A program made the translations under genes and the position numbers. From the NCBI RefSeq assembly GCF_988242995.1, contig NZ_OZ547043.1: a DNA stretch of 64,000 nucleotides, one strand, 5' to 3'. The notes under the pieces are model-generated. The model saw nothing but the letters and a program-made list of their open reading frames with translations, had not been told where the DNA came from and ran no database searches. Each line of letters begins with the position of its first letter. Within the stretch, counting starts at the first letter, position 1. Shown here in pieces: positions 22,533 to 56,287 of the stretch.

Positions 22533-24809
22533 ATGCTCAATCAAGAACTGGAACTCAGTTTAAATATGGCTTTCGCCAGAGCGCGCGAGCACCGTCATGA
22601 GTTTATGACCGTCGAGCACTTGTTACTGGCGCTGCTCAGTAACCCATCTGCCCGGGAGGCGCTGGAAGCGTGTTCTGTGGATTTGGTTGCGCTCCGTCAG
22701 GAACTGGAAGCCTTTATTGAACAAACCACACCCGTTCTGCCTGCCAGTGAAGAGGAGCGCGACACACAGCCGACGCTGAGTTTTCAGCGTGTACTGCAAC
22801 GTGCGGTCTTCCATGTCCAGTCCTCCGGTCGCAATGAGGTTACCGGTGCAAACGTTCTGGTCGCTATCTTTAGCGAACAGGAGTCGCAGGCGGCATATCT
22901 GTTGCGTAAACATGAAGTCAGCCGTCTCGATGTGGTGAACTTTATCTCTCATGGCACGCGTAAAGACGAGCCGACACAGTCTTCTGATCCTGGCAGCCAG
23001 CCAAACAGCGAAGAACAAGCTGGTGGGGAGGAACGTATGGAGAATTTCACGACGAACCTGAATCAGCTTGCGCGCGTGGGCGGAATCGACCCACTGATTG
23101 GTCGTGAGAAGGAGCTGGAGCGTGCTATTCAGGTTCTCTGCCGTCGCCGTAAAAACAACCCGCTGCTGGTGGGGGAATCTGGTGTCGGTAAAACCGCGAT
23201 TGCGGAAGGTCTTGCCTGGCGAATTGTTCAGGGTGATGTGCCGGAAGTGATGGCTGACTGTACGATTTACTCTCTCGATATCGGTTCTCTGTTAGCGGGC
23301 ACAAAATATCGCGGCGACTTTGAAAAACGTTTTAAAGCGTTGCTCAAGCAGCTGGAGCAGGACACTAACAGCATCCTGTTTATTGATGAGATCCACACCA
23401 TTATCGGTGCGGGTGCAGCGTCTGGTGGTCAGGTCGATGCGGCTAACCTGATCAAACCGTTGCTCTCCAGCGGTAAAATTCGCGTAATTGGTTCGACAAC
23501 CTATCAGGAGTTCAGCAACATTTTCGAGAAAGACCGTGCTTTGGCGCGTCGCTTCCAGAAAATTGATATTACTGAACCGTCGATCGAAGAAACTGTTCAA
23601 ATCATCAACGGCCTGAAACCGAAGTATGAAGCGCACCACGATGTGCGTTATACCGCAAAAGCGGTGCGTGCAGCGGTAGAGCTGGCGGTGAAATACATTA
23701 ACGATCGTCATCTGCCGGATAAAGCCATTGACGTCATCGACGAAGCGGGCGCTCGCGCACGCCTGATGCCGGTAAGCAAACGCAAGAAAACCGTTAATGT
23801 GGCGGATATTGAGTCCGTGGTGGCCCGTATTGCGCGCATTCCAGAGAAGAGTGTTTCTCAGAGTGACCGCGATACCCTGAAAAACCTCGGCGATCGCCTG
23901 AAAATGCTGGTCTTCGGTCAGGATAAAGCCATTGAGGCGCTGACTGAAGCCATTAAGATGGCGCGTGCAGGTTTAGGTCACGAACATAAACCGGTCGGTT
24001 CGTTCCTGTTTGCCGGCCCTACCGGGGTCGGGAAAACAGAGGTGACGGTACAGCTTTCGAAAGCTTTGGGCATTGAGCTTCTGCGCTTTGATATGTCCGA
24101 GTATATGGAACGCCATACCGTCAGCCGTCTGATTGGTGCGCCTCCGGGATACGTTGGTTTTGATCAGGGCGGTTTGCTGACTGATGCGGTCATCAAGCAT
24201 CCACATGCGGTGCTGCTGCTGGACGAAATCGAGAAAGCGCACCCGGACGTGTTCAATATTCTGTTGCAGGTGATGGACAACGGTACGCTGACCGATAACA
24301 ACGGACGCAAAGCGGACTTCCGTAACGTGGTATTGGTGATGACCACCAACGCTGGGGTACGAGAAACTGAGCGCAAATCCATTGGTCTTATCCACCAGGA
24401 CAACAGCACCGATGCGATGGAAGAGATCAAGAAGATCTTTACGCCGGAGTTTCGTAACCGTCTCGACAACATTATCTGGTTCGATCATCTCTCCACCGAC
24501 GTGATCCATCAGGTAGTGGATAAATTCATCGTCGAGTTGCAGGTTCAGTTGGATCAGAAAGGTGTTTCTCTGGAAGTGAGCCAGGAAGCGCGTAACTGGC
24601 TGGCCGAGAAAGGTTACGACCGGGCAATGGGCGCACGTCCGATGGCGCGTGTCATCCAGGACAACCTGAAAAAACCGCTCGCCAACGAACTGTTGTTTGG
24701 TTCGCTGGTGGACGGCGGTCAGGTGACGGTTGCGCTGGATAAAGAGAAAAATGAGCTGACTTATGGATTCCAGAGTGCACAAAAGCACAAGGCGGAAGCA
24801 GCGCATTAA
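22533..24809 (+). CDS. clpA: ATP-dependent Clp protease ATP-binding subunit ClpA
   Basis: ORF 22518..24809 trimmed to [19 protein letters not shown]...; two AAA+ modules ([16 protein letters not shown]); 758 aa. Confidence 0.95.
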
Positions 24810-24834
24810 TCTGATTGTCAGGTAGGTTGGTGAA

Positions 24835-24868
24835 GTCCGTAATCTCGAAAGAGGTTACGGACTTTTTG
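24835..24868 (+). terminator. Intrinsic terminator of clpA
   Basis: Stem GTCCGTAA...TTACGGAC followed by TTTTTG. Confidence 0.7.
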
Positions 24869-25021
24869 TTTGTAGGCTGGGGCGGTGAAAACCCTATTTT
24901 TGGAGGTGAAGGTAAGTTGTTGATAATTAATGGTGCTGGAAGGTAAGAATAAAAAAGGGTGGCAGCAGGAAAATGAGATGGTTTTGCTTTATTAATAACG
25001 GACTAAACGTGTAGTATTTGA

Positions 25022-25109
25022 GTTCACTGCCGTACAGGCAGCTTAGAAAGCCAACCGAAAGAAAAACTCGATTTTTATACCGTTCACTGCCGTACAGGCA
25101 GATAAAATG
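25022..25109 (+). CRISPR. Orphan type I-F CRISPR remnant: two 28-bp repeats and one 32-bp spacer, no adjacent cas genes
   Basis: Repeat 1 GTTCACTGCCGTACAGGCAGCTTAGAAA (25022-25049); spacer GCCAACCGAAAGAAAAACTCGATTTTTATACC (25050-25081); repeat 2 GTTCACTGCCGTACAGGCAGATAAAATG (25082-25109), degenerate in its last 8 nt. The repeat matches the E. coli I-F (CRISPR3/4) consensus as I remember it. Confidence 0.85.
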
Positions 25110-25508
25110 CGAAAAAAAACTCGTACTTTCGTACGAGCTTTTCTTTAAATATGGCGGTGAGGGGGGATTGACTCGCTTCGCTCGCCCTGCGGGCAGCCCA
25201 CTCACTGCGTTCGTGGTCTGTCCAACTGGCTGCGCCAGTTGTCGAACCCCGGTAGGGGCTTCTCATCCCCCTTGGAGTGCAATATGCGAAAAAAAAGCTC
25301 GCACTTTCGTACGAGCTCTTCTTTGAATATGGCGGTGAGGGGGGGATTGACTCGCTTCGCTCGCCCTGCGGGCAGCCCACTCACTGTGTTCGTGGTCTGT
25401 CCAACTGGCTGCGCCAGTTGTCGAACCCCGGTCGGGGCTTCTCATCCCCCTTGGAGTGCAATATGCGAAAAAAAAGCTCGCACTTTCGTACGAGCTCTTC
25501 TTTGAATA
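25107..25508. repeat. Tandem direct repeats (units of 177 and 179 bp plus a partial third) each ending in a copy of the 3' terminal ~19 nt of tRNA-Ser and its downstream terminator flank
   Basis: Unit boundaries at ATGCG motifs 25107, 25284, 25463; each unit contains ATGCGAAAAAAAA-hairpin-TTCTTTGAATATGGCGGTGAGGGGGGGATT followed by a ~110-bp segment GACTCGCTTCGCTCGCCCTGCGGGCAGCC...GGAGTGCAAT; units differ at a few positions. Confidence 0.85.
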
Positions 25509-25596
25509 TGGCGGTGAGGGGGGGATTCGAACCCCCGATACGTTGCCGTATACACACTTTCCAGGCGTGCTCCTTCAGCCACTCGGACACCTCACC
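25509..25596 (-). tRNA. serW: tRNA-Ser (serW-like)
   Basis: Minus-strand sequence GGTGAGGTGTCCGAGTGGCTGAAGGAGCACGCCTGGAAAGTGTGTATACGGCAACGTATCGGGGGTTCGAATCCCCCCCTCACCGCCA: 88 nt, long variable arm, T-arm GGTTCGAATCC, encoded CCA. Confidence 0.9.
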
Positions 25597-54526: not shown

Positions 54527-56287
54527 TTATTTTGCCCAGAATGCTGCTTTGGCGCGCTGCAGCTTTTCGTAGGCCTTCAACAACGACTGATGTGCAGCAA
54601 ACGCGTGCAGATCGCTATCTACTGGTTGCAAGCCATAAAACGCCGCTTCGCCGCTCATTGCCGCACTGGCGGCTTCCACGGCATCTGCGCCGTACATGCG
54701 AACAAACGCATTCAGATATTGCAGCGGCTGGCGATCTTCTTCCTGCGCCAGTAATAACAACGTTTGCAGGCAGCGATAATAGTTGGCGCGTTCCGGACTA
54801 AATACTGATGAGTTAAACTCCATCGTCCATTCGGTCCAGACCAGAGCCTGTTCCAGATCGCCACCAGCCAGCGCCAGCATGGCTTTTAATTCTCCGATAC
54901 GCAGGGTGTACCAACCGTTATCCGACCCGGTCGCCAGACCCAACAGCTCACGCACGCGAGTAAAGTCATCAAAACCTTCTTCATCCAGTTGCTCGATAAG
55001 GTTCAGGTAATCTTCTTTTTCCCACTCGCTGCCTGGTAACGAAAGAATCGTTTCACGTAAATGGCTGCCCATACTGTTATTCGCTAACCACAAATCTTCA
55101 GCCGGATAAATATCGGACATGCCAGGCACGATAATTCGGCAAGCATAAACGCCCAGATGCTCGTAATCGGCAATATAAACTTCTTTATCTTCTTTGTTGA
55201 AGATAGCCATCAGCGTAGCAAACTCTTCTTCCGTAGTGCCGGAGAAATTCCAGTCCACAAACGGATAATCGGCATCCAGCTTGAACAGGTCCCAGGAGAT
55301 TAAACCGCTGGAATCGATAAAGTGCGTTTCGAGGTTGGTATGTTCAGCAACTTCTTCATCATCGAAGGTTGGCGGAGTAAACACATCCAAATCTTTCAGG
55401 CCACGACCTTGCAGCAGCTCGGTCACGGTACGTTCCAGTGCTACGCCAAAATCAGGATGCGCACCGAAAGAGGCAAAGCAGGTACCGTTAGCAGGATTGA
55501 ACAGTACCACGCAAATCACCGGATACTGGCCGCCAAGCGAACCATCATAAGCAAAGATTGGGAAACCTTCTGCTTCCAGTGTTTCGATCGCTTCAACCAC
55601 CGCTGGGTAACGCGCCAGCACGTCTGCCGGGATTTCCGGCAAGCTGATGCTTTCAGCAATAATGCGGTTTTTCACGTAGCGTTCGAAAACTTCGGACAAC
55701 CCCTGAACGCGTGCTTCGTTTCGGGTATTGCCAGCGGACATACCGTTAGAAACGTACAGGTTACCAATGATATTCATCGGAATATAAACGATCTGATTGT
55801 CGGACTGGCGCGTAAACGGCAGACCGCAAATACCACGATCTTCGTTACCGGATTGCAGGTCAATCAGCATACTGCCGGTCAGTTCATTCTCCGGATCGTA
55901 AAATGCGCGCAGACGGTCATCGAGCAGCCCTTCTGGCACATCGTCATTTTCGCTCAGTGGGAACCATTTTTCGTTGGGATAATGCACGAACGGACCGTTG
56001 GCGATGGTTTCGCCCAGCCAGAAATCAGCAAAAAAGTAGTTGGTTGAGAGACGCTCGAAATATTCACCGAGTGCAGAAGCCAGCGCCGCTTTTTTGGTTG
56101 CGCCTTTACCGTTGGTAAAACACAGTGCGCACTCTTTGTCGCGAATATGTACAGACCAGACGTTAGGCACCGGATTCAACCAGGAGGCCTCTTCAATCTG
56201 AAAGCCGAGGTCTGAAAGTTTTTGCTGGAAGCGAGCGATGGAATCTTCCAGTGCGGCATCTTTGCCGGGGATAAATGTTTGCGTCAT
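54527..56287 (-). CDS. ycaO: YcaO (accessory factor for methylthiolation of ribosomal protein uS12)
   Basis: ORF 54527..56320 (-) trimmed to MTQTFIPGKDAALEDSIARFQQKL...; 586 aa. Confidence 0.9.
   Translation of the reverse strand: MTQTFIPGKDAALEDSIARFQQKLSDLGFQIEEASWLNPVPNVWSVHIRDKECALCFTNGKGATKKAALASALGEYFERLSTNYFFADFWLGETIANGPFVHYPNEKWFPLSENDDVPEGLLDDRLRAFYDPENELTGSMLIDLQSGNEDRGICGLPFTRQSDNQIVYIPMNIIGNLYVSNGMSAGNTRNEARVQGLSEVFERYVKNRIIAESISLPEIPADVLARYPAVVEAIETLEAEGFPIFAYDGSLGGQYPVICVVLFNPANGTCFASFGAHPDFGVALERTVTELLQGRGLKDLDVFTPPTFDDEEVAEHTNLETHFIDSSGLISWDLFKLDADYPFVDWNFSGTTEEEFATLMAIFNKEDKEVYIADYEHLGVYACRIIVPGMSDIYPAEDLWLANNSMGSHLRETILSLPGSEWEKEDYLNLIEQLDEEGFDDFTRVRELLGLATGSDNGWYTLRIGELKAMLALAGGDLEQALVWTEWTMEFNSSVFSPERANYYRCLQTLLLLAQEEDRQPLQYLNAFVRMYGADAVEAASAAMSGEAAFYGLQPVDSDLHAFAAHQSLLKAYEKLQRAKAAFWAK

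What the first reader, a model, noticed from the sequence alone, without database searches (positions are those of the whole stretch)
25022..25109. Orphan type I-F CRISPR remnant between clpA and serW
Two copies of a 28-bp repeat (GTTCACTGCCGTACAGGCAGCTTAGAAA, the second degenerate at its 3' end) are separated by exactly 32 bp. That is the repeat length and spacer length of type I-F arrays, and the repeat matches the E. coli I-F consensus as I recall it. No cas1, cas2-3 or csy genes are present: clpA ends at 24809 and serW starts at 25509. The clpA-infA interval is the known home of the I-F CRISPR-Cas locus in E. coli, so this is a decayed or minimal array left after cas loss. The single spacer may be a conserved, possibly self-targeting or regulatory, sequence rather than a recent acquisition.
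Basis: partly seen in the sequence, partly recalled or inferred. Interest (0 to 1): 0.5.

Follow-up and report, generated by a model that had tools for sequence, protein, structure and literature searches.

The report
Orphan I-F CRISPR array, anti-csy3 spacer
This is the well-documented one-spacer type I-F CRISPR array that E. coli strains without I-F cas genes keep between clpA and serW; its spacer matches the I-F gene csy3, so it is a known "anti-cas" array and an ordinary finding.

Summary
A full 28-nt type I-F repeat lies at 25022-25049, a 32-nt spacer at 25050-25081, and a second repeat at 25082-25109. The second repeat keeps the first 20 nt and ends in ATAAAATG. The array sits between clpA (ends 24809) and serW (25509-25596, minus strand), and the window holds no cas gene. 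The first repeat passes Rfam CRISPR-DR4 and is identical to the repeats that flank cas1f-cas6f at the same locus in I-F-positive E. coli. The leader is homologous as well.

The spacer has a target: csy3 of the I-F operon, next to the canonical CC (GG) PAM, with 1-2 mismatches that all fall at synonymous codon positions. It has no phage or plasmid match. Every spacer in ten other cas-less arrays I sampled, K-12 included, also hits cas1f, cas3f or csy3. The 27 spacers of two I-F-positive strains do not hit their own cas genes.

This is the CRISPR4.1-2 orphan array of the Mojica group. They reported that it guides incoming I-F Cas proteins against their own genes and so blocks re-acquisition of I-F. 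The exact spacer occurs in 379 of 5,426 complete E. coli genomes.

Verdict: real and already known. Interest is low.

The parts
24832..24865 (+). clpA intrinsic terminator hairpin, at the upstream boundary of the CRISPR leader
   Evidence: Terminator-like site with 15 pairs and a T tail; inverted repeat I5.
24866..25021 (+). Leader of the array. It is A/T-rich and homologous to the leader of the clpA-proximal array of I-F-positive strains. No promoter was located in it.
   Evidence: Alignment A1: the last ~120 nt before repeat 1 are nearly invariant between the window, K-12, three other cas-less strains and the I-F-positive strain SCU-122. The sigma-70 consensus scan found no site.
25022..25049 (+). 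Full 28-nt type I-F (CRISPR-4) repeat. It supplies the 8-nt 5' handle CUUAGAAA.
   Evidence: Rfam RF01317 at 50.1 bits, above the gathering score of 35. Identical to the repeats flanking cas1f-cas6f in SCU-122 and UTI89. Folds as a 5-bp stem with a 5-nt loop, -8.6 kcal/mol.
25050..25081 (+). 32-nt anti-cas spacer matching csy3 of the type I-F operon
   Evidence: 2 mismatches to SCU-122/UTI89 csy3 (spacer positions 2 and 23). 2 mismatches to the second E. coli csy3 allele (positions 26 and 29). 1 mismatch to E. whittamii and Escherichia sp. E1V33 csy3 (position 2). CC lies 5' of the protospacer in every case. Chance expectation for 2 or fewer mismatches in the locus is 4e-12. No phage or plasmid target.
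25082..25109 (+). Terminal repeat. The first 20 nt (Cas6f hairpin and 3' handle) are intact; the last 8 nt are ATAAAATG.
   Evidence: Rfam 29.7 bits. The same ...CAGATAAAATG ending occurs in all ten other cas-less arrays sampled.
25112..25145 (.). Hairpin that scores as a terminator on both strands. It is the first of three copies of the serW terminator and would end a plus-strand array transcript just after the terminal repeat.
   Evidence: Terminator-like sites at 25145-25112 on the minus strand and 25120-25137 on the plus strand; repeat family D2.

Best explanation
This is the orphan type I-F array of E. coli, called CRISPR4.1-2 at the CRISPR-III locus between clpA and infA. It consists of a leader, one full repeat, one spacer, and a terminal repeat that keeps the Cas6f hairpin. 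The strain has no I-F cas genes at this locus, so the array does nothing on its own. The spacer copies a stretch of csy3, the Cas7f backbone gene of the I-F effector.

Proposed mechanism, as published for this class of arrays and not tested here:
1. The array is transcribed constitutively from the leader.
2. DNA carrying an I-F cas operon enters the cell and its Cas6f cuts the resident transcript after G20 of each hairpin. This yields one crRNA: the 8-nt handle CUUAGAAA, the 32-nt spacer and the 20-nt hairpin handle.
3. The incoming Csy proteins load this crRNA and recognise CC-GxCAACCG... inside the incoming csy3 gene.
4. Cas2-3 degrades the incoming DNA or, where mismatches weaken binding, primes acquisition of further spacers.

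The net effect is that the lineage stays free of I-F cas.

Shown here: the identity of the repeat and leader, the geometry, the absence of cas, the spacer-csy3 match with PAM, and the population pattern. Inferred from the literature: transcription, processing and interference.
For: - Repeat family: repeat 1 passes Rfam CRISPR-DR4. The core is unique to this site in the window.
- Same locus in I-F-positive strains: SCU-122 and UTI89 have, in order, clpA, an array with the same leader and repeat, cas1f-cas3f-csy1-csy2-csy3-cas6f, serW, a second array, and infA.
- Spacer target: csy3 with a CC PAM and 1-2 mismatches. PMC3506596 places the E. coli I-F PAM (GG) at the leader-proximal end of the protospacer, which is the same orientation. 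All mismatches fall at synonymous third-codon positions (my reading of the frame). That fits allelic variation in the target gene.
- Population contrast: in 10 other cas-less arrays, all spacers hit cas1f, cas3f or csy3 with 3 or fewer mismatches, nearly all with a CC PAM. The 13 spacers of SCU-122 and 14 of UTI89 are at least 12 mismatches from their own cas genes.
- No alternative target: no phage or plasmid match.
- Mutual exclusion, sampled: the exact spacer is in 379 of 5,426 complete genomes and csy3 in 241 of 5,426. Each of the 18 listed exact-spacer genomes has a single matching place, so none carries a csy3 protospacer.
- RNA features: the hairpin is intact in both repeats, and a terminator follows the array.
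- Literature: PMC3903273 defines CRISPR4.1-2. PMC5972030 and PMC8616872 summarise Almendros et al. 2016: the orphan arrays are constitutively expressed, interfere with plasmids carrying I-F cas genes, and prime spacer acquisition. PMC12736100 reports that spacers of this region match cas1f (2), cas3f (5) and csy3 (1).
Against: - No perfect protospacer for this exact spacer turned up in 5,426 complete E. coli genomes or in the GTDB species representatives.
- Against the common csy3 allele (at least 99% identical to SCU-122 in 201 of 241 genomes) one mismatch is at spacer position 2. By my knowledge of I-F seeds (Wiedenheft 2011, cited in PMC3506596) that lies inside the seed. Direct interference with that allele may therefore be weak and limited to priming.
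- No sigma-70 consensus promoter was found in the leader.
- Signs of drift in relatives: point mutations in repeats and spacers in strains 100416, ETEC6334 and K-12, and complete loss of the spacer in strain W4.
- The primary experimental paper could not be read. Nothing about expression or interference was tested for this strain.
- Only 64 kb of the genome is visible, so absence of I-F cas elsewhere in the genome is inferred.
Confidence: 0.85

Rival explanations
1. The array is an inert relic. It is what remained when an ancestral I-F locus lost its cas genes, perhaps because self-targeting spacers made them lethal. It has no present function and survives only because it is small and neutral.
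For: - No cas genes at the locus.
- Drift in relatives: spacer variants GTC.../GCCAG..., a mutated first base of repeat 1 and two substitutions in the terminal repeat of strain 100416, a stem-breaking G-to-A change in the K-12 terminal repeat, and total loss of the spacer in W4.
- Seed-position mismatch to the commonest csy3 allele.
- No consensus promoter found.
Against: - A repeat unit was found at this locus in every cas-less strain examined in the literature (PMC3903273, PMC5972030).
- The leader is highly conserved.
- Every sampled spacer targets I-F cas genes next to a correct PAM, and several distinct anti-cas spacers exist in different lineages. That fits continued acquisition or selection better than one frozen relic.
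- Interference by native orphan arrays is reported experimentally (PMC8616872, PMC5972030, citing Almendros 2016).
Confidence: 0.13
2. The array is a Cas-independent regulatory RNA: its transcript acts as an sRNA on a resident E. coli gene, or as an antisense or terminator element for the convergent serW/RtT transcript.
For: The array converges on serW and shares a bidirectional hairpin with it. Orphan arrays with regulatory roles have been proposed in other species (PMC8616872).
Against: In 5,426 E. coli genomes the spacer matches only orphan arrays and csy3, plus a 24-26-nt IS3-transposase match at E = 2, which is chance level. It has no second match in the window. Different strains carry unrelated spacers at the same position, which a fixed regulatory target would not allow.
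Confidence: 0.015
3. The repeats are not CRISPR but two copies of some other repeat family such as REP, RtT or an att site.
For: The array directly abuts a 179-bp tandem RtT-like repeat.
Against: The 28-mer passes the Rfam CRISPR-DR4 gathering score. It is identical to the cas-adjacent repeats at the same locus. The RtT unit begins only after position 25107 and does not include the 20-nt core.
Confidence: 0.005

Closest known systems
Orphan CRISPR4.1-2 array of the E. coli CRISPR-III (clpA-infA) locus, with anti-cas spacers (Diez-Villasenor 2010; Almendros et al. 2016, Nat Microbiol; summarised in PMC3903273, PMC5972030, PMC8616872)
   Same: Same locus, leader, 28-nt repeat and terminal repeat ending ATAAAATG. 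No cas-F genes. One spacer that matches an I-F cas gene next to the GG/CC PAM. I treat the window as a member of this class.
   Different: Nothing categorical. This allele carries the anti-csy3 spacer, in 379 of 5,426 complete genomes, whereas K-12 and BL21 carry the anti-cas1f spacer. It differs by one base at position 2 from the variant in strain 100416, which matches E. whittamii and E. sp. E1V33 csy3 perfectly.
Complete type I-F CRISPR-Cas locus of E. coli (LF82, UTI89, ED1a, SCU-122): CRISPR4.1, cas1f-cas3f-csy1-csy2-csy3-cas6f, serW, CRISPR4.2
   Same: Same chromosomal site, same leader on the clpA side, identical repeat, 32-nt spacers.
   Different: The window lacks all six cas genes and lacks the second array between serW and infA; that interval is 253 bp with no repeat. 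It has one spacer instead of 6-8 per array. Its spacer targets cas, whereas the spacers of the complete loci do not. The terminal repeat ends differently: ATAAAATG against TATTCACA and TCTTCAAA.
Self-targeting spacers and CRISPR autoimmunity in general
   Same: The spacer derives from a gene of the CRISPR-Cas system itself.
   Different: The target is absent from this locus, so there is no autoimmunity here. The effect is directed at incoming DNA.

Membership tests
Type I-F CRISPR array (CRISPR-4 repeats, Rfam CRISPR-DR4 RF01317) | Repeat sequence matches the family model or consensus | tested here: met
   Repeat 1 scores 50.1 bits against a gathering score of 35, with 27 of 28 positions identical to the consensus. 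Repeat 2 scores 29.7 bits. Both are identical over the core to cas-adjacent E. coli I-F repeats.
Type I-F CRISPR array (CRISPR-4 repeats, Rfam CRISPR-DR4 RF01317) | 28-nt repeat and 32-nt spacer, giving a 60-nt period | tested here: met
   Start-to-start spacing is 60 and the spacer is 32 nt.
Type I-F CRISPR array (CRISPR-4 repeats, Rfam CRISPR-DR4 RF01317) | Cas6f hairpin (5-bp stem, 5-nt loop, at repeat positions 6-20) | tested here: met
   Both repeats fold as .....(((((.....)))))........ at -8.6 kcal/mol.
Type I-F CRISPR array (CRISPR-4 repeats, Rfam CRISPR-DR4 RF01317) | Leader homologous to that of a cas-linked array | tested here: met
   Alignment A1 against the SCU-122 clpA-side leader.
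Type I-F CRISPR array (CRISPR-4 repeats, Rfam CRISPR-DR4 RF01317) | Adjacent I-F cas genes (defines a complete system, not an array) | tested here: not met
   No cas homologue in the 64-kb window. clpA and serW lie 699 bp apart. For this reason I file it as an orphan array and not as a CRISPR-Cas system.
Anti-cas orphan CRISPR4.1-2 array (Almendros et al. 2016) | Lies between clpA and serW/infA in a strain without cas-F genes at that locus | tested here: met
Anti-cas orphan CRISPR4.1-2 array (Almendros et al. 2016) | Spacer matches an I-F cas gene next to the I-F PAM (GG, i.e. CC on the spacer-identical strand at the leader-proximal end) | tested here: met
   Matches csy3 with 1-2 mismatches and a CC PAM in all six csy3 alleles at 1-2 mismatches; a seventh, from a Pluralibacter MAG, is 7 mismatches away. 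PAM definition from PMC3506596.
Anti-cas orphan CRISPR4.1-2 array (Almendros et al. 2016) | Array is transcribed without cas genes present | not testable with these tools
   Only a literature statement for the class (PMC5972030, PMC8616872). The promoter scan was negative.
Anti-cas orphan CRISPR4.1-2 array (Almendros et al. 2016) | Interferes with, and primes spacer acquisition from, incoming DNA carrying I-F cas genes | not testable with these tools
   Needs transformation or conjugation assays. The seed mismatch to the common csy3 allele leaves efficiency uncertain.

The most novel reading that the evidence does not exclude
The most novel reading not excluded is that anti-cas spacer alleles are matched to particular I-F variants. 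This GCC... spacer has a perfect PAM, seed and first 25 nt against the minor E. coli csy3 allele (about 40 of 241 csy3-bearing genomes, 90-95% identical to the major allele). It has a seed mismatch against the major allele. Different orphan-array alleles would then form a lineage-specific exclusion map against different circulating I-F variants, instead of one generic anti-I-F block. That would be a modest extension of known biology.
Probability: 0.1. Interest if true: 0.3.

Novelty: already known. Interest (0 to 1): 0.1.

Why it matters
It matters little as a discovery. The locus, its orphan status and the anti-cas nature of its spacers were described between 2010 and 2016 and have been re-observed since (PMC3903273, PMC5972030, PMC12736100). 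It is a clean example of a CRISPR array turned against its own cas genes, which bears on why most E. coli lack I-F immunity. In practice the spacer is a lineage marker, present in about 7% of complete genomes. Genome annotation misses the array: RefSeq annotates nothing under it.

Tried and rejected
- Phage and plasmid targets for the spacer: only chance-level hits (E of about 1 or worse), plus one E. coli chromosome misfiled as a plasmid.
- Second copy or self-target in the window: none within 10 mismatches.
- More repeats elsewhere in the window, or a remnant of the serW-infA array: none. One 5-mismatch chance hit at 54653.
- cas genes in the window: none.
- Sigma-70 promoter in the leader: the consensus scan found none. 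By eye I saw only weak candidates (TTGATA at 24920 with an 18-19-nt spacer; TGTAGTAT at 25010), so I make no promoter claim.
- Perfect protospacer: a degenerate-codon scan of GTDB representative genomes gave 4 loci, the best with 1 mismatch.
- Reading Almendros et al. 2016 directly: the paper is not held, so I relied on two reviews from the same group and one independent survey.
- Non-CRISPR repeat family: rejected.
- Full cross-tabulation of spacer against cas presence over all 5,426 genomes: not possible, because the search tool lists at most 60 rows. I used counts and sampled rows only.

Full report
**1. What is in the sequence**

Window 25022-25109 reads GTTCACTGCCGTACAGGCAGCTTAGAAA | GCCAACCGAAAGAAAAACTCGATTTTTATACC | GTTCACTGCCGTACAGGCAGATAAAATG. 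The repeat finder reports the 20-nt core twice with a 60-nt period. With up to 3 mismatches allowed, the core occurs only at these two places in the 64 kb, against 0 expected in shuffles.

Rfam CRISPR-DR4 (RF01317) matches the first copy end to end at 50.1 bits, above the gathering score of 35. It matches the second copy at 29.7 bits. Both copies fold into the 5-bp stem and 5-nt loop of I-F repeats.

- clpA ends at 24809 (annotation of a 100%-identical record).
- serW, tRNA-Ser(GGA), lies at 25509-25596 on the minus strand.
- infA, aat and cydC follow.

tblastn of Cas1f, Cas3f, Csy1-3 and Cas6f against the window finds nothing beyond chance.

**2. Comparison with the same locus elsewhere**

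In the I-F-positive strains SCU-122 and UTI89 the order is: clpA, an array of 7-8 spacers, cas1f-cas3f-csy1-csy2-csy3-cas6f, serW, an array of 6 spacers, infA. Their repeats are identical to the window's repeat 1. The roughly 210 nt between clpA and the first repeat align with the window and are almost invariant over the last ~120 nt. The window array is therefore the clpA-side array with its leader, minus the cas genes. The 253-bp serW-infA interval of the window carries no second array.

K-12 MG1655 has the same two-repeat architecture and the same terminal repeat ending ATAAAATG, but a different spacer. All ten other cas-less arrays I sampled share that terminal repeat ending. Eight hold one spacer, one (HCM-24C-3) holds two, and one (W4) has collapsed to a single hybrid repeat with no spacer.

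**3. The spacer has a target**

The spacer matches csy3 of SCU-122 at L001 20476-20507 on the coding strand, with 2 mismatches and CC immediately 5' of the match. The chance expectation for 2 or fewer mismatches in that locus is about 4e-12. PMC3506596 places the E. coli I-F PAM (GG) at the end of the protospacer that becomes leader-proximal. That is the same as CC 5' on the spacer-identical strand, so the orientation and PAM are canonical.

The csy3 alleles I examined differ from the spacer as follows:

| csy3 source | Mismatches | Spacer positions |
|---|---|---|
| SCU-122 / UTI89 (major E. coli allele) | 2 | 2 and 23 |
| 025542-1 / SCPM-O-B-8794 (minor E. coli allele) | 2 | 26 and 29 |
| E. 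whittamii and Escherichia sp. E1V33 | 1 | 2 |

Reading the csy3 frame (start at L001 19614), every one of these differences is a synonymous third-codon change (CGT/CGC, GAC/GAT, TTT/TTC, TAT/TAC). That looks like allelic variation in a protein-coding target.

The spacer variant in strain 100416 (GTC...) matches the E. whittamii and E1V33 protospacer perfectly. I found no perfect protospacer for the window's own variant in 5,426 complete E. coli genomes or in the GTDB representatives. The spacer has no credible phage or plasmid match.

**4. Population pattern**

- The exact spacer is in 379 of 5,426 complete E. coli genomes. Each of the 18 listed examples has a single matching place, so none also has a csy3 protospacer.
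- csy3 is in 241 of 5,426 genomes, always on the chromosome: 201 at 99% identity or more to the SCU-122 allele and 39 at 90-95%.
- Every spacer in the ten other cas-less arrays matches cas1f (K-12, BL21, O157:H7, HCM-24C-3), cas3f (AVS0786, FDAARGOS_144, EcPF18, HCM-24C-3) or csy3 (NY1601, 100416, ETEC6334). All have 3 or fewer mismatches, and the PAM is CC in all but one case.
- The 13 spacers of SCU-122 and 14 of UTI89 are at least 12 mismatches from their own cas genes, which is the chance level.

**5. Mechanism**

*Shown here.* The array retains everything needed for one crRNA:
- the 8-nt 5' handle, from repeat 1;
- the 32-nt spacer;
- the 20-nt hairpin handle, from the terminal repeat.

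The divergence of the terminal repeat begins exactly after position 20. The terminal repeats of the cas-linked arrays diverge at the same point. A hairpin that scores as a terminator on both strands follows at 25112-25145.

*Inferred from the literature.* The orphan arrays are constitutively expressed. When I-F cas genes enter, their products process and load the resident crRNA and destroy the incoming cas-bearing DNA, with primed acquisition of more spacers (PMC5972030 and PMC8616872, summarising Almendros et al. 2016). I could not read that primary paper.

*Caveats for this allele.*
- The position-2 mismatch to the major csy3 allele lies in the I-F seed as I know it, so direct interference with that allele may be poor. 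The minor allele has an intact PAM, seed and first 25 nt.
- No consensus promoter was detected.
- Relatives show mutational drift.

I put the identity of the element at above 0.95. I put the anti-cas function of this particular allele at about 0.6-0.7, with the inert relic as the main alternative.

**6. Comparison with the known**

The element fits the published CRISPR4.1-2 orphan array of the CRISPR-III locus in every feature I could test (PMC3903273). A 2025 survey of uropathogenic strains lists exactly this class of spacers in the clpA-infA repeat region: two against cas1f, five against cas3f and one against csy3 (PMC12736100). It is not a complete I-F system, because the cas genes are absent. 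Novelty: already known.

**7. Verdict**

The one refinement is that the "conserved, possibly self-targeting" spacer is an anti-csy3 spacer. It is lineage-specific rather than species-wide. Interest is low (0.1).

Noticed in passing
window 25107-25527 (minus-strand features; units at 25152-25285 and 25330-25464): There are 2.4 tandem copies of a 179-bp unit downstream of serW (97% matches). Each unit holds an RtT-like element (Rfam RF00391 at 41.6 and 38.2 bits, just under the gathering score of 45), a copy of the serW terminator hairpin and a 19-nt copy of the tRNA 3' end. This parallels the 178-bp repeats of the tyrT operon. Copy number varies between strains: K-12 has none, while BL21 and ETEC6334 each carry a unit that RefSeq annotates as 'RtT sRNA'. 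Only 901 of 5,426 genomes cover 80% or more of the interval. The CRISPR terminal repeat abuts the first terminator copy.
   Followed up: partly
window 25509-25596 versus L001 21291-21378: The serW allele differs with I-F status. The window and K-12 read ...ATCGGGGGTTCGAATCCCCCCC..., while the I-F-positive strain SCU-122 reads ...ATCCGGGGTTCGAATCCCCGCC.... This is a compensatory G:C to C:G swap in the T stem. It suggests the whole clpA-infA block, tRNA included, is a divergent haplotype in I-F-positive lineages.
   Followed up: no
L002 4053-5261, L004 1776-2993, L009 1938-3140 (relatives; absent from the window): Several relatives carry a tyrosine-integrase island at the serW 3' end. They include NY1601, which is 100% identical to the window over 24810-25510. 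In the window infA follows serW directly. serW is an integration hotspot next to the array.
   Followed up: no
L001 18680-19603 and L020 9066-9989: csy2 is annotated as a pseudogene with an internal stop in both I-F-positive strains I inspected (SCU-122 and UTI89). The commonest E. coli I-F haplotype may therefore itself be defective.
   Followed up: no
L008 1014-1041 (strain W4): This cas-less strain has lost the spacer altogether. A single hybrid repeat, GTTCACTGCCGTACAGGCAGATAAAATG, follows the leader, as expected from recombination between the two repeats.
   Followed up: partly
window 25022-25109 in RefSeq relatives: RefSeq (PGAP) annotates nothing under the orphan array in any of the cas-less genomes inspected, although it marks the longer arrays of I-F-positive strains as 'CRISPR'.
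   Followed up: no
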